In this document: positions 11,715 through 32,104 of the stretch, in pieces | Numbering within the stretch: the stretch's first letter is position 1 | Layout of the letters: each line of letters starts with the position of its first letter | Source: Dehalococcoidia bacterium | GTDB taxonomy: Bacteria; Chloroflexota; Dehalococcoidia; UBA2979 | Assembly: GCA_965219085.1 (NCBI GenBank) | Contig: OZ244720.1 | Span: forward strand, 864,001 to 928,000 | Length of the DNA stretch: 64,000 nt | Direction of reading: 5' to 3' | Program-made: the position numbers and the translations under genes | Notes under the pieces: model-generated | The model's input: only the letters and a program-made list of their open reading frames with translations | Told to the model about the DNA's origin: nothing | The model's database searches: none

Positions 11715-13007
11715 CAGGGTGCTGAAAAAGGCGCGGCCATCTGGCAGGATAGCGAAGGCGGCGGGGGCGTAGCCTGGGAGGCAGCCCCGTGCGAGGCGAC
11801 GCCGAGCGCCAGACCAACATGTTGCTGGCGGTGACGCCGGACTCCTTCATCCCGGACGACCACCCGATCCGACGCATCAAGCCGATCGTCGATGCAGCGC
11901 TGCAGCGGCTCTCGCCGCTCTTCGGCACGATGTACGCAACGAGCGGGCGGCCCTCGATCCCGCCCGAGCACCTGCTCAAGGCGAGCCTGCTGATCGCGCT
12001 CTACTCGATCCGCAGCGAGCGCCAGTTCTGCGAGCGGCTGCGCTACGACCTGCTCTTCAAGTGGTTCTTGGACCTCAACATCTCAGACGCGCCGTTCGAC
12101 GCCTCGAGCTTCTCGAAGAACCGCGAGCGCCTGCTCGCAGCCGATGTCGCGCGCGCCTTCTTCGCCGAGGTGGTGGCCGAGGCAAAGCGCCGCCGGCTGC
12201 TCTCCGCCGAGCACTTCACCGTGGACGGGACGCTGCTGGAGGCCTGGGCCTCGCTCAAGAGCTACCGCCCGCGCGACGGGCAGGAGCCACCCCCGGGCGG
12301 ACGCAACCCGGACGTGGACTTCCGCGGGCGGCGGCGCAGCCGCGATACGCATAGCTCCGGCACCGACCCGCAGGCGCAGCTGTACACAAAGGGAGCGGGG
12401 CAGACGGCGAAACTGAGCTACATGGGCCATCTGCTCACCGAGAACCGTCACGGCCTGGTGCTGGACGTGGAGTTGACCGAGGCGAACGGGTACGCCGAGC
12501 GCGAGGCCGCGGTCACGATGCTGGAGCGCAGCGTGAGCGGCTGCGGGACGCTGGGCGCCGACCGCGGCTACGACACGCGCGACTTCGTGGCGGAACTGCG
12601 CGCGCGCGGCGTGACGCCGCACGTGGCGCAAAACGACCGCGGCCGCCGCAGCGCCGTGGACGGGCGCACCACGCGGCATCGCGGCTACAGGCAGAGTCAG
12701 CAGCGGCGCAAGATCGTGGAGCAGGTCTTCGGCTGGATGAAGACCGTGGGCGGCGGGCGCAAGCTGCGTTTCGTGGGCCGCGAGCGCAACCGCGGCTGGC
12801 TGGAGCTCACCGCCGCCGCCTACAACCTCGTGCGCATGGCCAGGCTCGAACTCGCCCCTGCGTAGGCGCAGTGCGCCCTCCGGCCGGTCCGGGAGCCCTC
12901 AGAGGCCCCCGGGGGCAGGTCAGGAGGCCACCATCACGAAGCCGGAGGCGGCTTCAAGCCGCCTCTCGCCACTCCGAGACCCCGGAAGGCGCTTCTTCAG
13001 CACCCTG
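11715..13007 (+). mobile_element. IS5-family element, copy 1 (1293 bp)
   Basis: Terminal IR CAGGGTGCTGAA. CTAG duplicated at 11711-11714 and 13008-13011. Inserted in the last codons of the PIN gene. Confidence 0.95.
11789..12865 (+). CDS. IS5-family DDE transposase
   Basis: GRPSIPPEHLLKA (InsH N-terminal domain), FTVDGT, LGADRGYD, RKIVEQVFGWMK. Confidence 0.95.
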   Translation: MRGDAERQTNMLLAVTPDSFIPDDHPIRRIKPIVDAALQRLSPLFGTMYATSGRPSIPPEHLLKASLLIALYSIRSERQFCERLRYDLLFKWFLDLNISDAPFDASSFSKNRERLLAADVARAFFAEVVAEAKRRRLLSAEHFTVDGTLLEAWASLKSYRPRDGQEPPPGGRNPDVDFRGRRRSRDTHSSGTDPQAQLYTKGAGQTAKLSYMGHLLTENRHGLVLDVELTEANGYAEREAAVTMLERSVSGCGTLGADRGYDTRDFVAELRARGVTPHVAQNDRGRRSAVDGRTTRHRGYRQSQQRRKIVEQVFGWMKTVGGGRKLRFVGRERNRGWLELTAAAYNLVRMARLELAPA

Positions 13008-25776: not shown

Positions 25777-26748
25777 CTAGAACTCGCCCTCCCTGACCGG
25801 TCGGGCTGGGAGGGCGACGACCACCGGCGTCACCGGCTCGTTGCCGGGGACGACCCCATCCCCCACCTTGAGGCTCCTCGCTGCCACGCTGTCCATGCCC
25901 GCGAGCTTCGCGGCGCCGGTCAGGGCTTCCACGTCGCCGCCGTAGTACTCGAACCACGGTAGCCCGGCCGCCGAGTAGTCCTGCGCGCTCACCGGTTCGT
26001 GGGGAGGCTCGCCGCCGGTCACGCCGAGGAACTGGACGCTGTTCAGGATGTGTACGAAGCAGCGGGACCGCACCGACGTCTCCCACGCATCGAAACCGTA
26101 GGGGTCTTCGTAGACCTCCTGGCGCATCAGGCCGCCCGGAGCGAGACTCATCTCGCCGTCCGGGACGGGAGCAAGAGCCAGGACTTCCTCCTCGACGCGG
26201 CGTTCCAGCGCGAGGGCCTCGTAGCTCGACACCTTCATCGGATGGACGGCGATCTGCAGGCCGCCGTGCTGTGCCTCGCCGGTGAGCTGCTCCTCGGCGG
26301 AGTACCCCGCGCCCAGGGGCATCGCCACGAATTGCCGCACCAGTCCTTGCTCGACGCAGAAGCCGTCCAGCCACGGCTGCTCGGGGACCACGAGGTAGTC
26401 CTGCGGCGAATCGGAGAGCTCGTTCGTCCACGGGTCCCCCGTCAGTGCGTTGATCTTCCCGGCCGCCACCTTCACGGCCATCGGGTAGCTCCCGGTGAAG
26501 CTGAGCCACATCGCCTCGGCCTGGTACATCGGGAGAAACACCCCGCCGCGCGCCGCCCACTCCGCGGGCAGTCGCTCCAGGTAGTCGTCGACGTGGCTGA
26601 GCGGGAACGCCCCCGGGCCCTGCGGCAGGGGATAGTCGCGGTTGTCGTCGGGGATGCGCAGTGTGCGCTGGAACTCGACCTCCAGCACGGCGTCGTCATG
26701 GACCTCGGGGAACCGGAATATCAGACGGTTGTGCTGGTGCTCGATCAC
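25777..26748 (-). CDS. Conserved uncharacterised protein (FQRTLRIPDD / QPWLDG / QFVAMPLG family)
   Basis: Distinctive conserved motifs. AAGGAG RBS before GTG 26748. Co-directional with the phosphatase-ARH gene. Confidence 0.8.
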   Translation of the reverse strand: MIEHQHNRLIFRFPEVHDDAVLEVEFQRTLRIPDDNRDYPLPQGPGAFPLSHVDDYLERLPAEWAARGGVFLPMYQAEAMWLSFTGSYPMAVKVAAGKINALTGDPWTNELSDSPQDYLVVPEQPWLDGFCVEQGLVRQFVAMPLGAGYSAEEQLTGEAQHGGLQIAVHPMKVSSYEALALERRVEEEVLALAPVPDGEMSLAPGGLMRQEVYEDPYGFDAWETSVRSRCFVHILNSVQFLGVTGGEPPHEPVSAQDYSAAGLPWFEYYGGDVEALTGAAKLAGMDSVAARSLKVGDGVVPGNEPVTPVVVALPARPVREGEF

Positions 26749-26769
26749 AGATGTCTCCTTCTCGTGGTG

Positions 26770-27758
26770 GTTGCTTCCTGCCAGCCGGAGGGCGTCTCGA
26801 CCCGCCGCGTCGACGACCTCGTGCGCTCGCTCGGCTGTGAGGGCATCTCGAAAAGAGCCAGGTCTCGAGGATCTGCGCAGAGCTCGACACGGTCGTCGCG
26901 AGCTTCCTCGGCCGGCCGCTCGACGGCGGTCCCTACCCCTACCTGTGGCTCGACGCGCTCACGCAGCGGGTGCGCGAGGAGGGCCGCATCGCTCAGGTCA
27001 GCCCTGCGGGGTATCCCCGCGTACGCGGGAAGGGTGGTCGCCACCGCGGTCAACGCCGAGGGCAAGCGCGAGGTGCTGGGCATCGACGTCGGCACCAGCG
27101 AGGACGGGGCGTTCTGGCTAGCGTTTCTGCGCGGGCTCGTGGCACGAGGGCTCTCCGGTGTGGAGTTGGTGACCTCCGACGCCCTCAGGGCCTCAAGGAG
27201 GCGATCGCGACTGTCTTCGGCGGCGCCTCGTGGCAGCGCTGCCGCACGCACTTCATGAGGAATCTGCTGACGCGCGTGCCGAAGAGCGCCGAGGCGCTGG
27301 TGGCGACGACGGTGCGCACGATCTATCAGCAGCCGTCGGCGGAGGCGGTGCACGCCCAGCACGCCCGGGTGGTGGAGCAGCTGGACGCGCGCTTCCCCGA
27401 TGCCGCGGTCATGCTCGCCGACGCGGCCGCGGAGATACTGGCGTTCACGGCCTTCCCGGTCGCGCACTGGAAACAGGTCTGGTCGAACAACCCGCTGGAG
27501 CGGCTCAACAAGGAAATCCGCCGGCGCACCAACGTGGTCGGCATCTTCCCCAACCGCGCCGCGGTGGTCCGGCTGGTCGGCGCCGTGCTCGCCGAGCAGC
27601 ACGACGAGTGGGCGGTCGCGAGGCGCTACATGACGATGGTGACGCTGCTGCCCCCGCCGGGGCTCACGGCCGCGTCAGGCGAGGAGGTGCTGCTGCAGGC
27701 TGCCAGCTAGCAATTGATAAGGATGGTGCACTGTGACACCACCTTGCGGGACGTGACC
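26770..27758 (+). mobile_element. IS256-family remnant (5'-truncated, frameshifted mutator transposase)
   Basis: EGVSTRRVDDLV, YPYLWLDA, GKREVLG, WQRCRTHF, SNNPLERLNKEIRRR in different frames. IS256-like right end ...ACACCACCTTGCGGGACGTGACC. Confidence 0.85.
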
Positions 27759-27895
27759 GGCGCATCCTCGCCCGCGCCCACCAGATGGCATGAGGGCCGG
27801 TCTCCTCCTCAAGGGGGGATACTCGCCCCCGAAACAGCGGCCTCGATGGGCCAGAACGGCTCTCTGCGGAGCCTTGACGAGGTAGGAGACCGGCC

Positions 27896-28984
27896 ATGCA
27901 GCAGGATATCGCAACGACGCGGAGCATCGAGGGCAGGGATGGGCCTGCGTTCACCGTCGGCCTCGACGTAGGAGACCGCTACATCCACGTCTGCGTCCTC
28001 GGCAGCGGCGGCGAGGTGGTGCGCGAGCGGCGCGTCCGCACCACGGCGGCGGCGCTCGGCGGCGCACTGGAGGACCTTCCGCCGGCGCGGGTCGTGCTCG
28101 AGGCGGGGCCGCGCTCGCCGTGGCTGAGCCGCGTCGTGGCGGATCTCGGCCACGAGGCGGTCGTCGCCAACCCTCGCCAGGTCGCGCTGATCGCCCGCAG
28201 CCAGCGCAAGACCGACCGCCTCGACGCCGCATGGCTGGCGCGGCTGGGGCGCTTCGACCCGGAGTTGCTCGCCCCGATCCGCCACCGCAGCGAGCAGAGC
28301 CAGCATGACCTCGCCGTGGTGCGCGCCCGCGACGCGCTGGTGCGCTCGCGCACGCTGCTCATCAACCACATGCGCGGGGCCGTCAAGGCCTGCGGCGCCG
28401 CGCTGCCGTCGTGCACGGCCGAGGCCTTCCACCGCAAGGCGGCGGAGCACATCCCCGATGGGCTGCGCCCGGCGCTGCTGCCGCTGGTGGAGGCGATCGG
28501 CGAGCTGACCGCGCGTATCGCGGCGGCCGGGCGGGAGGTCGAGGCGTTGTGCGAGGCCCACCCCGAGACCGCGGCGCTGCGCCAGGTCACCGGCGTGGGG
28601 CCGATCACCGCGCTCACGTTCGTGCTGACGATCGAGAACCCGGGGCGCTTCCCGAAGAACCGGGAGGTGGGGGCCTACCTCGGGCTCGTACCGCGGCAGC
28701 GCGAGTCTGGAGAGCGCGCGCCACAGCTCCGGATCAGCAAGAGCGGCGACGCGGGCTTGCGGCGGCTGCTGGTGCAGGCCGCGCACTACATCCTCGGTGC
28801 CTTCGGACCCGATACCGACCTGCGCCGCTGGGGTGAGCGCTACGCGGGAACAGGGGCGGGCAACGCGAAGAAGCGCGCGGTTGTGGCTGTCGCACGACGG
28901 CTGGCGGTGCTGCTGCTCGCGCTGTGGAAGACAGGGGAGTTCTACGAGCCGCTGCGCCACGCCGTGGCCCGCGAGGCCGCGTAG
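27896..28984 (+). CDS. IS110-family DEDD recombinase/transposase (intact)
   Basis: VGLDVG, VVLEAG, KTDRLDA, GVGPITA, YLGLVPRQRESG, ISKSGD..LRRLL. AGGAG RBS. Confidence 0.95.
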   Translation: MQQDIATTRSIEGRDGPAFTVGLDVGDRYIHVCVLGSGGEVVRERRVRTTAAALGGALEDLPPARVVLEAGPRSPWLSRVVADLGHEAVVANPRQVALIARSQRKTDRLDAAWLARLGRFDPELLAPIRHRSEQSQHDLAVVRARDALVRSRTLLINHMRGAVKACGAALPSCTAEAFHRKAAEHIPDGLRPALLPLVEAIGELTARIAAAGREVEALCEAHPETAALRQVTGVGPITALTFVLTIENPGRFPKNREVGAYLGLVPRQRESGERAPQLRISKSGDAGLRRLLVQAAHYILGAFGPDTDLRRWGERYAGTGAGNAKKRAVVAVARRLAVLLLALWKTGEFYEPLRHAVAREAA

Positions 28985-29059
28985 CGGGGAGGCGCCGCCG
29001 CCGCCGGCGCAGCAGACCCGGAGATCAGGAAGGAAGACCCGATCGCGAACGAAGCCACG

Positions 29060-29212
29060 CACGTGATGCCGAACACGGGCGACTGCGGCCGAGCTGCTGT
29101 CCCATCGAGGACGTCCACCAGCTGGCAGCGCCCCCTGGAAGCAGGATGTGCCTTCATGCACCGGGCCCGATGCGCGGCCCACAGACGAGTGCGGATAGAA
29201 GCTCGGCACAGG
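29060..29212 (+). ncRNA. Predicted bridge/seek RNA of the IS1111-type element
   Basis: Two internal loops closed by stems. Loop 1 strands CGAGCTGCTG (29090-99) and CCACCAGC (29115-22) match both strands of the target. Loop 2 strands TGCCTTC (29149-55) and ATAGAAG (29195-201) match the donor junction. Boundaries approximate. Confidence 0.8.
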
Positions 29213-29243
29213 CTCCTCTGTTCGGAGATAACGCGCAGGCGCG

Positions 29244-29397
29244 AGGTGGATGAGGCGCCACGCCGCCCGGGCAGGGAGGCCGCCACGTCGGCCTTGCAGA
29301 TCAGACCGTCCCTCATAGAAGGTGGATGAGGCGCCACGCCGCCCGGGCAGGGAGGCCGCCACGTCGGCCTTGCAGATCAGACCGTCCCTCATAGAAG
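29244..29397 (+). repeat. Perfect 76-bp tandem duplication of the IS right end
   Basis: AGGTGGATGAGGCGCC...CCGTCCCTCATAGA starts at 29244 and again at 29320. Confidence 0.95.
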
Positions 29398-30631
29398 CAG
29401 CTCGTCCGGGACCGCACCCGCCAGACCAAATCTGTACGTGGGTGATGACTGGGCCGAGGAGCACCACGATGTCCACCTCATGAACGAAGTGGGCGGACAG
29501 CTTGCTGCCAGGCAGTTGCCGGAGGGGGTTCGGGGCGTTACCGCGCTGCACGAACTGCTCGCGCAGCATGCATCAGAACCGGGCGAGGTCGTCATCGGTA
29601 TCGAGACCGACCGTGGGCCGTGGGTGTCCTCATTGCTCGCCGCCGGCTACCGCGTCTACGCAGTCAACCCGCGCTCAGTGGCCCGCTATCGCGACCGTCA
29701 CCACGTCGGCGGCGCGAAGTCCGATGCCGGCGACACGAAGCTCTTGGCCGACCTGGTACGCACGGACCGTCACAACCACCGCGAGGTCGCCGGCGACACC
29801 GACGAGGCTGCGGCTGTGCGCATCCTCGCACGCGCCCACCAGCAGTTTATTTGGGACCGCACGCGACAAACCAATCGGCTCCGCAACGGGCTCCGAGAGT
29901 ATTTCCCGGCGGCCCTGGAGGCCTTCCACGACCTCGCTCACGGCGACGCGGTGGGCGTGCTGGCAACGGCCCCGGACCCGCGCGCGGCGGCGCGGCTGAC
30001 CATGCCGCAGATCCGGGCCGCCCTCCGTCGAGGTGGCCGCCAGCGGTACATCGACCGCCGCGCCACCGAGATCCGCGACGCGCTGCGATCCCCGCAGCTC
30101 GAGGTGGCGCCCGTGGTGAGCAGTGCGTTCGCCGCGACCACCAGCGCGGTGGTAGGCCAGATCGGCCAGATCAATCATCGGATTAAGGAACTCGAGGCTG
30201 AACTGGCGAGCCATTTTGAGCAGCACCCGGACGCCACGATCTACCGCTCCATGCCCGGACTCGGTGTCGTGCTCGGCGCCCGGGTGCTCGGCGAGTTCGG
30301 GGATGACCCCGAACGCTACGAGTCGGCGAAGTCCGCAGGAACTACGCCGGCACCTCGCCGCTCACCGTAGCATCGGGGCGCAAGCGCACCGTGAAGGCCC
30401 GCTTCATCCGCAACCGGCGGCTCTCCGACGCCGCCAACCACTGGGCGATGTGCTCGCTGCGCGCGAGCCCGGCTTGCCGCGAGTTCTACGACCCGCGGCG
30501 CGCCGCCGGCGACCTGCACCACCAGGCGCTGCGTGCCCTCGGCAACCGCCTCGTCGGCTACCTCCATGGCTGCCTCAGGAATTGCACCCTCTACGACGAG
30601 GCCATCGCCTGGGCCCACCGTTCGGCTCTAG

Positions 30632-31924
30632 CAGGGTGCTGAAGAAGCGCCTTCCGGGGTCTCGGAGTGGCGAGAGGCGGCTTGAAGCCGCCTCCGGCTT
30701 CGTGATGGTGGCCTCCTGACCTGCCCCCGGGGGCCTCTGAGGGCTCCCGGACCGGCCGGAGGGCGCACTGCGCCTACGCAGGGGCGAGTTCGAGCCTGGC
30801 CATGCGCACGAGGTTGTAGGCGGCGGCGGTGAGCTCCAGCCAGCCGCGGTTGCGCTCGCGGCCCACGAAACGCAGCTTGCGCCCGCCGCCCACGGTCTTC
30901 ATCCAGCCGAAGACCTGCTCCACGATCTTGCGCCGCTGCTGACTCTGCCTGTAGCCGCGATGCCGCGTGGTGCGCCCGTCCACGGCGCTGCGGCGGCCGC
31001 GGTCGTTTTGCGCCACGTGCGGCGTCACGCCGCGCGCGCGCAGTTCCGCCACGAAGTCGCGCGTGTCGTAGCCGCGGTCGGCGCCCAGCGTCCCGCAGCC
31101 GCTCACGCTGCGCTCCAGCATCGTGACCGCGGCCTCGCGCTCGGCGTACCCGTTCGCCTCGGTCAACTCCACGTCCAGCACCAGGCCGTGACGGTTCTCG
31201 GTGAGCAGATGGCCCATGTAGCTCAGTTTCGCCGTCTGCCCCGCTCCCTTTGTGTACAGCTGCGCCTGCGGGTCGGTGCCGGAGCTATGCGTATCGCGGC
31301 TGCGCCGCCGCCCGCGGAAGTCCACGTCCGGGTTGCGTCCGCCCGGGGGTGGCTCCTGCCCGTCGCGCGGGCGGTAGCTCTTGAGCGAGGCCCAGGCCTC
31401 CAGCAGCGTCCCGTCCACGGTGAAGTGCTCGGCGGAGAGCAGCCGGCGGCGCTTTGCCTCGGCCACCACCTCGGCGAAGAAGGCGCGCGCGACATCGGCT
31501 GCGAGCAGGCGCTCGCGGTTCTTCGAGAAGCTCGAGGCGTCGAACGGCGCGTCTGAGATGTTGAGGTCCAAGAACCACTTGAAGAGCAGGTCGTAGCGCA
31601 GCCGCTCGCAGAACTGGCGCTCGCTGCGGATCGAGTAGAGCGCGATCAGCAGGCTCGCCTTGAGCAGGTGCTCGGGCGGGATCGAGGGCCGCCCGCTCGT
31701 TGCGTACATCGTGCCGAAGAGCGGCGAGAGCCGCTGCAGCGCTGCATCGACGATCGGCTTGATGCGTCGGATCGGGTGGTCGTCCGGGATGAAGGAGTCC
31801 GGCGTCACCGCCAGCAACATGTTGGTCTGGCGCTCGGCGTCGCCTCGCACGGGGCTGCCTCCCAGGCTACGCCCCCGCCGCCTTCGCTATCCTGCCAGAT
31901 GGCCGCGCCTTTTTCAGCACCCTG
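30632..31924 (-). mobile_element. IS5-family element, copy 2 (1293 bp, inverted relative to copy 1)
   Basis: Same IRs. CTAG at 30628-30631 and 31925-31928. Confidence 0.95.
30774..31850 (-). CDS. IS5-family transposase
   Basis: Protein identical to 11789-12865 in the ORF track. Confidence 0.95.
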   Translation of the reverse strand: MRGDAERQTNMLLAVTPDSFIPDDHPIRRIKPIVDAALQRLSPLFGTMYATSGRPSIPPEHLLKASLLIALYSIRSERQFCERLRYDLLFKWFLDLNISDAPFDASSFSKNRERLLAADVARAFFAEVVAEAKRRRLLSAEHFTVDGTLLEAWASLKSYRPRDGQEPPPGGRNPDVDFRGRRRSRDTHSSGTDPQAQLYTKGAGQTAKLSYMGHLLTENRHGLVLDVELTEANGYAEREAAVTMLERSVSGCGTLGADRGYDTRDFVAELRARGVTPHVAQNDRGRRSAVDGRTTRHRGYRQSQQRRKIVEQVFGWMKTVGGGRKLRFVGRERNRGWLELTAAAYNLVRMARLELAPA

Positions 31925-31967
31925 CTAGAACAACCCGCCGCTTGACGGCTTAGGACCATGGGATGTC

Positions 31968-32104
31968 TACGCCCGCCCCTACTGCTCCAATGCCGAACGT
32001 CTGCACCAGCTCCCGCGCTGGCTCTACCGCTACAATGCTCGCCGACCGCACGGCGGCATTGGCGGGGCCGTCCCCGCCTCACGCCTGTAAACAACCTAAC
32101 TACA
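31968..32104 (+). mobile_element. IS481-family 3' remnant
   Basis: Reads YARPYCSNAERLHQLPRWLYRYNARRPHGGIGGAVPASRL* (stop 32088-90), then an end in ...AACAACCTAACTACA. Confidence 0.75.

What the first reader, a model, noticed from the sequence alone, without database searches (positions are those of the whole stretch)
29060..29212. Readable bridge/seek RNA with target and donor loops: a new programmable recombinase candidate
Seen: outer stem TGCCGA (29067) / TCGGCA (29203). The target loop is closed by GGGCGaCTGC/GCAGCGCCC with inner hairpin GTCC/GGAC. Its strands are CGAGCTGCTG (10/10 reverse complement of target CAGCAGCTCG) and CCACCAGC (8/8 to the target top strand). The donor loop lies around GCAC/GTGC. 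Its strands are ATAGAAG (7/7 to right end + core) and TGCCTTC (6/7 to the bottom strand of the left end, TGCCATC). The core is AG, not the CT of IS621. The recombinase ORF is intact.
Basis: partly seen in the sequence, partly recalled or inferred. Interest (0 to 1): 0.75.

Follow-up and report, generated by a model that had tools for sequence, protein, structure and literature searches.

The report
IS1111-type insertion sequence guide RNA
This is a real guide ("bridge" or "seek") RNA of an IS110/IS1111-family jumping gene, which picks its insertion site by base-pairing; it is a new example of a mechanism described in 2024, not a new kind of system.

Summary
Every motif sits at the stated coordinates.

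- **Element:** a 1,613-bp insertion sequence at window 27785-29397. It has an intact 362-aa DEDD/serine recombinase gene (27896-28984).
- **RNA:** a 163-nt structured RNA (29055-29217) lies downstream of that gene.
[quoted passage not shown] They vary together with the flanking DNA. In 12 of 17 elements the 5' strand matches the core plus right flank. In 14 of 17 the 3' strand matches the left flank plus core.
- **Structure:** seven helices are supported. 94.6% of cells are paired, against 34-44% when partners are slid, and 29 of 40 pairs show compensatory changes.
- **Donor guides:** the 3' donor strand equals the last 7 nt of the right end in 11 of 11 distant relatives. The 5' donor strand is only weakly supported.
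- **Family:** the layout is that of the IS1111 group and its seekRNA.
- **Not shown:** RNA expression.
- **Verdict:** new member of a known kind, of moderate interest.
- **Side findings:** all four guide classes in this genome sit in transposase genes of other IS families. Right-end units are tandemly duplicated at internal AG sites.

The parts
27785..29397 (+). Whole insertion sequence (copy 'W'), 1,613 bp including a duplicated 76-nt right-end unit; 1,537 bp without it
   Evidence: Ends come from 10 paralogous copies of 86-91% identity. They also come from unoccupied target sites of two sister classes that carry a single AG. Letters were checked.
27778..27784 (+). Left half of the target plus core AG (CCACCAG). 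It lies in a 25-nt remnant (27760-27784) of an IS110-family transposase gene.
   Evidence: It matches the 3' target-loop strand. The 25-mer is identical to 6 other places in the genome, all inside IS110-family tnp copies.
27785..27800 (+). Left end; subterminal inverted repeat at 27790-27800
   Evidence: ATGAGGGCCGG against the reverse complement of 29382-29392 gives 10 of 11, starting 5 nt from each terminus (letters, compared by eye).
27896..28984 (+). Recombinase (transposase) gene, 362 aa, intact
   Evidence: Pfam DEDD_Tnp_IS110 (6.9e-21) and Transposase_20 (3.9e-21). NCBIfam NF033542 scores 244.7 bits against a cut-off of 140. The GLVPRQRESG motif aligns with the serine loop of ISCro4 and IS621. 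Relatives of 362 aa reach 88-91% identity.
29055..29217 (+). Structured guide RNA (long seekRNA / bridge RNA), 7 helices
   Evidence: Covariance model R1 matches here at 187.5 bits. Helix coordinates are and the pair counts.
29077..29133 (+). Target-binding stem-loop: closing stem 29077-29086 with 29125-29133, inner hairpin 29098-29102 with 29109-29113
   Evidence: Helices 3 and 4 are 97.6% and 95.5% paired, with compensatory changes in 4 of 9 and 4 of 5 pairs.
29087..29099 (+). 5' strand of the target loop. 29090-29099 (CGAGCTGCTG) is complementary to the top strand: last left-flank base, core AG and 7 nt of right flank.
   Evidence: (I12). Pairwise identity among 7 close family members is 38% in these columns against 92% in the rest of the RNA.
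29114..29124 (+). 3' strand of the target loop. 29115-29122 (CCACCAGC) has the sense of the top strand (left flank, core AG, 1 nt), so it pairs with the bottom strand.
   Evidence: AG sits at a fixed position in all 7 close sequences.
29146..29157 (+). 5' donor strand (contains TGCCTTC, 29149-29155); proposed to pair with the G of the core plus the first bases of the left end
   Evidence: 6 of 7 in W. In relatives the same register gives 5-6 of 8. One position covaries: G:C, C:G or A:T in 8 of 10 rows and mismatched in 2 (read by eye). Weak.
29158..29192 (+). GCAC/GTGC stem (29158-29161 with 29189-29192) enclosing hairpin 29163-29169 with 29173-29180
   Evidence: Helix 6 was not part of the model yet is 97.4% paired, with C-G changed to G-C in 4 sequences. 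In helix 7 all 7 pairs show compensatory changes.
29193..29202 (+). 3' donor strand. ATAGAAG (29195-29201) equals the last 7 nt of the right end, core AG included.
   Evidence: The same 7-mer recurs as the right-end terminus in 11 of 11 distant relatives and covaries A/G.
29246..29321 (+). Right-end unit, first copy (76 nt), preceded by an internal AG
   Evidence: Perfect tandem repeat. Most other copies carry one unit.
29322..29397 (+). Right-end unit, second copy. It holds the subterminal repeat 29382-29392, a -35-like TTGCAG at 29370-29375 and the terminal core AG at 29396-29397.
   Evidence: TTGAC at the same distance from the end in 10 of 11 distant relatives (by eye).
29398..29432 (+). 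Right half of the target (CAGCTCG...), the continuation of the IS110-family tnp remnant
   Evidence: 26 of 35 identical to the continuation of the same gene in another copy. Complementary to the 5' target strand.

Best explanation
Window 27785-29397 is an IS1111-group member of the IS110 family.

**Components**
- Its DEDD/serine recombinase gene is at 27896-28984.
- A roughly 163-nt RNA (29055-29217) is encoded in the long non-coding region downstream of that gene.

**Target recognition**
- The RNA has a stem-loop whose two single strands read the target.
[quoted passage not shown] **Donor recognition**
- Two further single strands read the element's own joined ends.
- The 3' strand (29195-29201) has the sequence of the right end plus core.
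- The 5' strand (29149-29155) is probably complementary to the G of the core plus the left end.

**Reaction**
- The recombinase exchanges strands at AG.
- No target duplication results beyond the shared AG.

**Shown here**
- The anatomy.
- The conserved structure.
- Covariation of guides with flanks.
- The match of one donor strand to the right end.
- The unoccupied sites.

**Inferred from characterised relatives (ISEc11, ISPa11, ISKpn4, IS621)**
- That the RNA is made.
- That it binds the protein.
- That recombination goes through a circle.
For: **Protein family.** Pfam DEDD_Tnp_IS110 and Transposase_20 match. NF033542 'IS110 family RNA-guided transposase' scores 244.7 bits against a cut-off of 140. 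The C-terminal domain matches the ISCro4 and IS621 structures at E 3e-10 and 3e-9.

**Ends.**
- All 11 copies in the genome have AG directly 5' of the left end (c340 once its end is set one base to the left).
- 8 of 11 copies have an intact right end that ends in AG; 3 are truncated.
- One sister class has unoccupied sites with a single AG: 6 exact and 2 with one mismatch. Another has 6 sites with 1-2 mismatches.

**Guides.** In an alignment of 7 close sequences the guide columns are 30-38% identical and the rest of the RNA 92%.
- 5' strand against own core plus right flank: 6 or more contiguous letters in 12 of 17 elements. Means against other elements' flanks are 2.7-3.5.
- 3' strand against own left flank plus core: 5 or more in 14 of 17. 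Means against other elements are 2.1-2.9.
- The c2848 copy also fits once the true flank behind its right-end array is read (by eye).

**Structure.** A covariance model built from 7 close sequences finds the RNA just downstream of the gene in 11 of 18 further loci, at 40-54% protein identity (E 6e-9 to 0.03). The other 7 are truncated or partial. On the 20-row alignment 94.6% of cells pair, against 34-44% when slid. 29 of 40 pairs have compensatory changes, and 0 of 500 shuffles reach any of the measures.

**Donor.** The 3' donor 7-mer equals the right-end terminus in 11 of 11 distant relatives. It reads ATAGAAG in 3 and ATGGAAG in 8, each time in both places.

**Order of guides.** The top-strand match lies 5' of the bottom-strand match. 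The long non-coding region is downstream, the element has subterminal repeats, and the protein has the GL-P----SG motif. These are the IS1111-family features of PMC11187229 (sections 6, 9 and 14 read).
Against: - **No direct RNA evidence.** Contigs of three metatranscriptome runs from one study cover the gene (27760-29037) but not the RNA region. Contigs cannot show transcription.
- **No Rfam family** matches the RNA region.
- **No promoter- or terminator-like site** in the linear element.
- **W's own MFE fold differs.** It reaches -69.4 against -53.2 kcal/mol and pairs the 5' target guide with 29200-29207.
- **Discordant elements.**
  - c340: both strands. It is a mosaic.
  - L027: both strands, unexplained.
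  - L044 and L043: 5' strand.
  - L022: 5' strand, broken by one mismatch.
  - c1936: 3' strand, broken by one mismatch.
- **The 17 elements are not independent.** Several share guides.
- **Register.** In W the core-pairing bases of the 5' strand sit one position nearer the inner hairpin than in its paralogues.
- **No second W copy.** There is no other copy of W's guide class and no unoccupied W target in the genome within 2 mismatches.
- **The 5' donor strand** matches only 5-6 of 8.
- **Alignment bias.** The alignment used for the pair counts was fitted to the model for 36 of the 40 pairs.
Confidence: 0.88

Rival explanations
1. The family's RNA is genuine, but this copy (W) is an immobile relic. 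It sits in a degraded target, has a duplicated right end, and its RNA may misfold.
For: - W is the only copy of its guide class.
- No unoccupied W target exists in the genome.
- Its flanks are a 60-nt remnant of another IS gene, cut on both sides by other elements.
- Its MFE fold sequesters the 5' guide.
Against: - The ORF is full length, 362 aa, like relatives at 88-91% identity.
- Both ends, all 7 helices and both guides are intact.
- A metatranscriptome contig spans the same left junction from 27760 (record 18). This shows only that the insertion exists elsewhere.
Confidence: 0.25
2. The guide segments act as DNA, not RNA. Single-stranded DNA of the non-coding region would pair with the target, as in IS200/IS605 target recognition.
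For: All evidence here is DNA sequence covariation, which cannot tell DNA guides from RNA guides.
Against: - In characterised relatives the RNA co-purifies with the transposase and is essential (PMC11187229, abstract and sections 9, 10 and 14). Durrant et al. show the same for IS621 (PMC11208160, passages).
- G-U pairs occur in the conserved helices (for example UG:10 at one pair and GU/UG in helices 1-2). This fits RNA better than DNA.
- The protein belongs to the same NCBIfam equivalog.
Confidence: 0.04
3. It is a conserved 3' UTR, terminator or regulatory structure of the transposase mRNA, and the matches to the flanks are chance.
For: - The structure lies directly behind the gene.
- The single-sequence fold is not exceptional (z = -1.34).
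Against: - Hypervariability is confined to two strands.
- Those strands track the flanks across at least 12 of 17 elements in several phyla.
- One strand copies the right-end terminus in 11 of 11.
- There is no terminator-like T run.
Confidence: 0.02

Closest known systems
IS1111-family seekRNA elements ISEc11, ISPa11, ISKpn4 and ISPst6 (Siddiquee et al. 2024, PMC11187229; abstract and sections 6, 9, 10, 13, 14 read)
   Same: - The long non-coding region lies downstream of tnp.
- Subterminal inverted repeats.
- The GL-P----S(t)G motif.
- The top-strand match lies 5' of the bottom-strand match, and the two overlap at the insertion point.
- The long RNA form is 145-170 nt (here 163 nt).
- Natural retargeting between relatives (ISEc11 against ISXne4).
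   Different: - The protein is 362 aa; the paper gives 330-350 aa for the family.
- Protein identity to any plasmid-borne IS110-family gene is below 36%.
- The hosts are uncultured high-GC bacteria whose nearest records are labelled Dehalococcoidia.
- Four guide classes coexist in one genome.
- No experiment exists for this clade.
- Placement in the IS1111 clade by a tree was not tested.
IS621 bridge RNA (Durrant et al. 2024, PMC11208160, passages read; Hiraizumi et al. 2024, search listing only; PDB 8wt6)
   Same: - Four guide segments each include the core dinucleotide.
- One strand of each pair reads the top strand and the other the bottom strand.
- Target and donor are read by separate parts of one RNA.
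- The recombinase is a DEDD plus serine enzyme.
- Durrant et al. predicted bridge RNAs in the right end of 93.0% of IS1111 elements.
   Different: - The RNA is 3' of the gene, not in the left end.
- The order of the strands is reversed. In IS621 the guide for the left bottom strand comes first; here the guide for the right top strand comes first.
- The core is AG, not CT.
- The donor strands lie in a multi-branch junction rather than in an internal loop of a second stem-loop.
- Only the C-terminal domain aligns significantly.
ISPpu9 of Pseudomonas putida (Pares-Guillen et al. 2025, PMC12288879; abstract, section 13 and part 1 of section 18 read)
   Same: - Recombination occurs at an invariant AG at both ends.
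- AG dinucleotides at unintended places are used when the ends are altered.
- Small modules flanked by end-like boxes sit downstream of tnp, some duplicated in tandem.
   Different: - The ISPpu9 module carries a separate sRNA (Ssr9) that is not needed for transposition.
- Here the repeated units are parts of the element's own right end, and one unit carries the guide RNA itself.
Tandem expansion and half-match recombination at IS110 loci (bioRxiv 10.64898/2026.08.14.744561, passages read; 10.64898/2026.08.31.748434, abstract only)
   Same: - Non-coding repeat units accumulate next to the transposase.
- The unit boundaries match one donor arm only.
   Different: - Those surveys do not mention IS1111 (0 occurrences of the word in the first preprint).
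- Here the units share the right-end boundary and start at internal AG sites, two of which lie in or next to guide-encoding DNA.

Membership tests
IS110 family (RNA-guided DEDD/serine recombinases) | N-terminal DEDD (RuvC-like) domain | tested here: met
   PF01548, E 6.9e-21, residues 21-164.
IS110 family (RNA-guided DEDD/serine recombinases) | C-terminal PF02371 domain with the conserved serine loop | tested here: met
   PF02371, E 3.9e-21. GLVPRQRESG aligns with GLTPRRYESG of ISCro4.
IS110 family (RNA-guided DEDD/serine recombinases) | Score above the curated cut-off of NCBIfam NF033542 | tested here: met
   244.7 bits against a cut-off of 140.
IS110 family (RNA-guided DEDD/serine recombinases) | Site-specific insertion at a core dinucleotide without a longer target duplication | tested here: met
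   AG at both junctions in all copies with intact ends. Unoccupied sites carry a single AG.
IS110 family (RNA-guided DEDD/serine recombinases) | Circular intermediate with a right-end/left-end junction | not testable with these tools
   No such joint appears in the contigs of 4 runs. Contigs drop rare forms, so this says nothing either way.
IS1111 group | Subterminal inverted repeats of 7-17 bp | tested here: met
   27790-27800 against 29382-29392: 10 of 11, 5 nt from each terminus (by eye). Conserved and covarying in relatives.
IS1111 group | The longer non-coding region lies downstream of tnp | tested here: met
   111 nt upstream (27785-27895) against 413 nt downstream, or 337 nt without the duplicated unit.
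IS1111 group | GL-P----S(t)G motif in the C-terminal domain | tested here: met
   GLVPRQRESG in the translation. The motif is as given in PMC11187229, section 6.
IS1111 group | The top-strand match in the RNA lies 5' of the bottom-strand match | tested here: met
   29090-29099 is complementary to the top strand. 29115-29122 has the sense of the top strand.
IS1111 group | The transposase falls in the IS1111 clade of a family tree | not tested
   No tree with ISfinder references was built, because reference sequences were not on hand. The protein is 362 aa, just outside the 330-350 aa range quoted for the family.
Bridge RNA / long seekRNA | Conserved secondary structure encoded in a non-coding end | tested here: met
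   7 helices. 94.6% of cells are paired against 34-44% slid, and 29 of 40 pairs have compensatory changes.
Bridge RNA / long seekRNA | Two target-guide strands that pair with opposite strands of the two target halves and overlap at the core | tested here: met
   12 of 17 (5' strand) and 14 of 17 (3' strand) elements match their own flanks. Guide columns are 30-38% identical against 92% for the rest.
Bridge RNA / long seekRNA | Donor guide matching the right end plus core | tested here: met
   7 of 7 in W. 11 of 11 distant relatives, with A/G covariation.
Bridge RNA / long seekRNA | Donor guide complementary to the core plus left end | tested here: inconclusive
   6 of 7 in W and 5-6 of 8 in relatives. 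One position covaries in 8 of 10 rows (by eye). An alternative pairing with the subterminal repeat is not conserved.
Bridge RNA / long seekRNA | The RNA is expressed and bound by the recombinase | not testable with these tools
   Only contigs of metatranscriptome runs were available, and they do not cover 29055-29217.
Bridge RNA / long seekRNA | Changing the guides changes the insertion site | not testable with these tools
   The natural series of guide classes with matching targets is consistent with it. The experiment itself was not done.

The most novel reading that the evidence does not exclude
This lineage lives as a parasite of other insertion sequences. Each of its four guide classes in this genome is programmed to a conserved spot inside the transposase gene of a different IS family: IS110-like, IS5/IS1182-like (DUF772 + DDE_Tnp_1), DDE_Tnp_1_4 and IS3-like (rve). 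A close relative sits in the 5' non-coding region of an IS110-family element.

On this reading, retargeting of the RNA guides lets the element hop between multicopy, dispensable and horizontally mobile 'safe harbours'.

The DNA that encodes its own donor guide may also act as a pseudo-end. That would seed tandem arrays of right-end units, one of which carries a second copy of the guide RNA.
Probability: 0.35. Interest if true: 0.55.

Novelty: new member of a known kind. Interest (0 to 1): 0.35.

Why it matters
**Natural retargeting.** One genome shows four guide classes on an otherwise 92% identical RNA, each with matching occupied sites. Two classes also have unoccupied sites. This gives the targeting rules of this clade without an experiment:
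- about 5-8 nt of left flank plus AG on one strand;
- AG, or only its G, plus 6-8 nt of right flank on the other strand.

**A compact candidate system.** The element is a 362-aa protein plus a 163-nt RNA. It comes from a lineage below 36% protein identity to plasmid-borne relatives, and it could be tested as a recombinase.

**Biology.** The element appears to use other insertion sequences as landing pads. It also shows recombination at internal AG sites that builds right-end arrays, as recent preprints describe for IS110 loci.

None of this changes the known mechanism.

Tried and rejected
1. **Single-sequence folding**. The MFE structure differs from the comparative one and is not exceptional, so it was not used as evidence.
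2. **Rfam scan of 26000-32000** at E up to 1. There is no family over the RNA. The only hit above its gathering score is Ms_AS-4 at 30250-30331 (-), inside the neighbouring IS110-family gene.
3. **RNAalifold's local hairpin** GTGC/GCAC around the 5' donor strand. Rejected: distant relatives lack it and instead keep GCAC/GTGC with compensatory changes.
4. **Pairing of 29151-29160 with the left subterminal repeat.** This gives 9 of 10 plus one G-U in W, seen. Rejected because it is not conserved in relatives.
5. **Promoter and terminator scan of 27700-29450**. Nothing was found. A junction promoter remains an untested idea: it would combine the -35-like box at 29370-29375 with a -10 formed across the joined ends.
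6. **Sequencing runs**.
   - Contigs of three metatranscriptome runs from one study cover 27760-29037.
   - Those contigs do not cover the RNA.
   - No circle junction was seen in the contigs of the four runs laid.
   - Because these are contigs, this is evidence neither for nor against expression.
7. **Model R1 in 150 other genomes of the same phylum**. No match at E up to 0.001 with the stricter filters. The RNA was not found in those searched.
8. **Flanks of relatives**. Only 1 of 10 flank frames tested is an IS gene (L021). Two are ordinary genes (SSF, PNP_UDP_1) and 7 have no Pfam match. IS-targeting is therefore not general in the wider family.
9. **Permutation test of guide-flank pairing.** Not done (see below). 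The own-against-others table is used instead.
11. **Supplementary files were not asked for.** Supplementary Table 5 of Durrant et al. and the supplementary figures and target lists of Siddiquee et al. may already list this clade or its targets.
12. **Literature on IS-in-IS targeting by bridge-RNA elements.** One search found no paper on this theme among the 15 listed of 16 hits. This is a weak negative.

Full report
**What is there**

The finding lies in the 3' non-coding part of an insertion sequence that I call W, at window 27785-29397.
- Upstream is a 362-aa ORF (27896-28984, + strand). It has Pfam DEDD_Tnp_IS110 and Transposase_20.
- It scores 244.7 bits against NCBIfam NF033542 'IS110 family RNA-guided transposase', whose cut-off is 140.
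- Its C-terminal domain matches the solved ISCro4 and IS621 transposases at E 3.4e-10 and 3.1e-9. GLVPRQRESG aligns with their serine loop.

**Ends and core**

The window's genome is one contig of 3.31 Mb. The window itself is 69% G+C.
- The genome holds W and ten further copies of 86-91% identity. Three of them are truncated at the right.
- All 11 have AG directly 5' of the left end. For c340 this holds once its end is set one base to the left.
- The 8 copies with a whole right end all end in AG.
- The commonest class has reconstructed unoccupied sites with a single AG, six exact and two with one mismatch. Two of these lie in this window, at 12252-12271 (+) and 31368-31387 (-).
- A second class has six unoccupied sites with 1-2 mismatches.
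- The element therefore inserts at AG without further duplication, as IS110-family elements do.
- Subterminal inverted repeats (27790-27800 and 29382-29392) match at 10 of 11. They lie 5 nt from each terminus (by eye).

**The guide strands**

When the copies are aligned, the RNA region is nearly invariant except for two short blocks.
- Among 7 distinct close sequences the blocks are 38% and 30% identical in pairwise comparison. The rest of the RNA is 92% identical.
- The 5' block is the reverse complement of the core plus right flank.
- The 3' block has the sense of the left flank plus core, with AG at a fixed position.
- I compared 17 elements from this genome and from other records.
  - The 5' block shares 6 or more contiguous letters with its own flank in 12 of them. 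Means against other elements' flanks are 2.7-3.5.
  - The 3' block shares 5 or more in 14. Means against other elements are 2.1-2.9.
- For W the values are 9 and 7, against maxima of 5 and 3 for foreign flanks.
- The c2848 copy also fits once the flank behind its right-end array is read.

Not all elements fit.
- c340 carries the guides of another class. It is a mosaic whose last ~1,200 nt are 100% identical to that class.
- L027 fits on neither side and I cannot explain it.
- L044 and L043 fit on the left only.
- L022 and c1936 each fall short on one strand because of a single mismatch.
- Several of the 17 share guides, so they are not independent events.
- A permutation test was not completed (see Tried and rejected).

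**Structure**

- A covariance model built from them (R1) finds a full-length match directly downstream of the gene, on the same strand, in 11 of 18 further loci. Their proteins are 40-54% identical (E 6.4e-9 to 0.026).
- The 7 loci without a match are short contigs, partial genes or truncated copies.
- These 11 records are labelled Thermomicrobiaceae, Thermoanaerobaculia, Longimicrobiaceae, Terriglobia, Acidobacteriaceae, Gemmatimonadales and Chloroflexi.
- I tested seven helices on the 20-row alignment.
  - 94.6% of cells form standard pairs, against 34-44% with partners slid by 1-3 columns.
  - 29 of 40 pairs show changes on both sides.
  - None of 500 shuffles reaches the observed values.
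- Thirty-six of the pairs were in the model, so the alignment leans towards them.
- The four pairs of the GCAC/GTGC stem were not in the model. They are 97.4% paired, with C-G replaced by G-C in four sequences.
- W's helices are at these positions:
  - 29059-29065 with 29209-29213
  - 29067-29072 with 29203-29208
  - 29077-29086 with 29125-29133
  - 29098-29102 with 29109-29113
  - 29134-29137 with 29142-29145
  - 29158-29161 with 29189-29192
  - 29163-29169 with 29173-29180

**Donor recognition**
- The 3' single strand holds ATAGAAG (29195-29201), which is the last 7 nt of the right end.
- In 11 of 11 distant relatives the same 7-mer of the RNA recurs 50-210 nt downstream as the element's terminus. 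The A/G difference covaries: ATAGAAG in 3 and ATGGAAG in 8.
- The 5' single strand (TGCCTTC) is less clear.
- In that register the base that pairs with the core G is invariant. One position covaries with the fifth base of the left end in 8 of 10 rows (by eye).
- I rate this part as inconclusive.

**What it is**

The layout matches the IS1111 family as defined by Siddiquee et al. 2024 (PMC11187229):
- a long non-coding region downstream of the gene;
- subterminal repeats;
- the GL-P----SG motif;
- the top-strand match 5' of the bottom-strand match;
- an RNA the size of their 'long seekRNA' (145-170 nt).

In IS621 the order of the guides is the reverse (PMC11208160, passages). Durrant et al. had already predicted bridge RNAs in the right end of 93.0% of IS1111 elements. 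The AG core is also that of ISPpu9 (PMC12288879). The finding is therefore a new member of a known kind.

The protein is distant from characterised ones. It is below 36% identical to the best of at least 5,000 plasmid records. The RNA model finds 13 matches in its own genome, 11 of them full length, and none in 150 other sampled genomes of the phylum.

**Expression**

Expression was not shown.
- Contigs of three metatranscriptome runs from one study cover the gene but not the RNA.
- Contigs cannot prove transcription.
- The linear element has no promoter-like site.
- A -35-like box lies 22-28 nt from the right terminus: TTGCAG in W and TTGAC in 10 of 11 relatives (by eye). This fits the junction promoter known for the family, but I did not test it.

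**Side observations**
1. W's last 76 nt are duplicated in tandem.
   - One sister copy has one extra unit.
   - Copy c2848 has four extra units of 322, 119, 175 and 119 nt. The first carries a complete second RNA.
   - Every unit ends at the right-end terminus and begins just after an internal AG.
   - There are five distinct junction types, and AG makes up 8.6% of dinucleotides in this region.
   - Two of the internal sites lie in or next to guide-like letters of the RNA gene.
   - This fits the half-match recombination and tandem expansion reported for IS110 loci in two 2026 preprints.
2. All four guide classes of this genome sit inside transposase genes of other IS families. A close relative sits in the 5' non-coding region of an IS110-family element. 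Distant relatives do not show this pattern.

**Verdict**
- Confidence that this is the element's guide RNA is 0.88.
- Novelty: new member of a known kind.
- Interest: 0.35.

Noticed in passing
window 29246-29321 and 29322-29397; genome G000:C1:2850006-2850740; L002 (copy c1259): Tandem duplications of right-end units of 76, 322, 119, 175 and 119 nt. Each ends at the element's terminus and starts right after an internal AG. One unit carries a whole second copy of the guide RNA. They look like recombinase-made 'half-match' products.
   Followed up: partly
window 27760-27784 and 29398-29432; 12252-12271 (+); 31368-31387 (-); L048:1238-2806 (-); L009:938-1510 (+): All four guide classes of this IS lineage in the genome target transposase genes of other IS families: an IS110-like remnant, DUF772 + DDE_Tnp_1, DDE_Tnp_1_4 and rve/rve_3. 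The window holds two unoccupied target sites of the commonest class.
   Followed up: partly
window 29433-30642: A second, different IS110-family element lies directly to the right of W. It is 82.6% identical to six other copies over 1,191 nt. Its reading frame appears broken (ORFs 29438-30370 and 30391-30642). It lacks the ~250-nt upstream region that the other copies carry, which may be their own 5' bridge RNA.
   Followed up: partly
window 30250-30331 (-): Rfam Ms_AS-4 (an Actinobacteria sRNA) matches at 64.4 bits, above its gathering score of 50, antisense inside the IS110-family gene. The Rfam family may simply be a conserved piece of IS110 transposase genes.
   Followed up: no
window 26970-27759: The end of a Mutator/IS256-family transposase gene (Pfam Transposase_mut, 1.5e-51) abuts the 25-nt target remnant. 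It is about 84% identical to nine other copies in the genome. The region is a pile of nested insertion sequences.
   Followed up: no
G000:C1:340396-341913 (copy c340): A mosaic copy. Its first ~300 nt are its own (71-93% identical to the c1259 class). The remaining ~1,200 nt, guides included, are 100% identical to that class. Its guides therefore do not match the site it sits in. This is evidence of recombination between copies.
   Followed up: yes
L027:1393-2915: An element in a related genome whose two target guides match neither flank. The flanks form a palindrome around the insertion. It may be an off-target insertion or later guide change.
   Followed up: no
window 29088-29095 and 29200-29207: In W only, the 5' target guide is complementary to the 3' side of the outer stem region. 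The single-sequence MFE (-69.4 kcal/mol) therefore sequesters the guide, while the comparative structure scores -53.2. This could lower the activity of this copy.
   Followed up: partly
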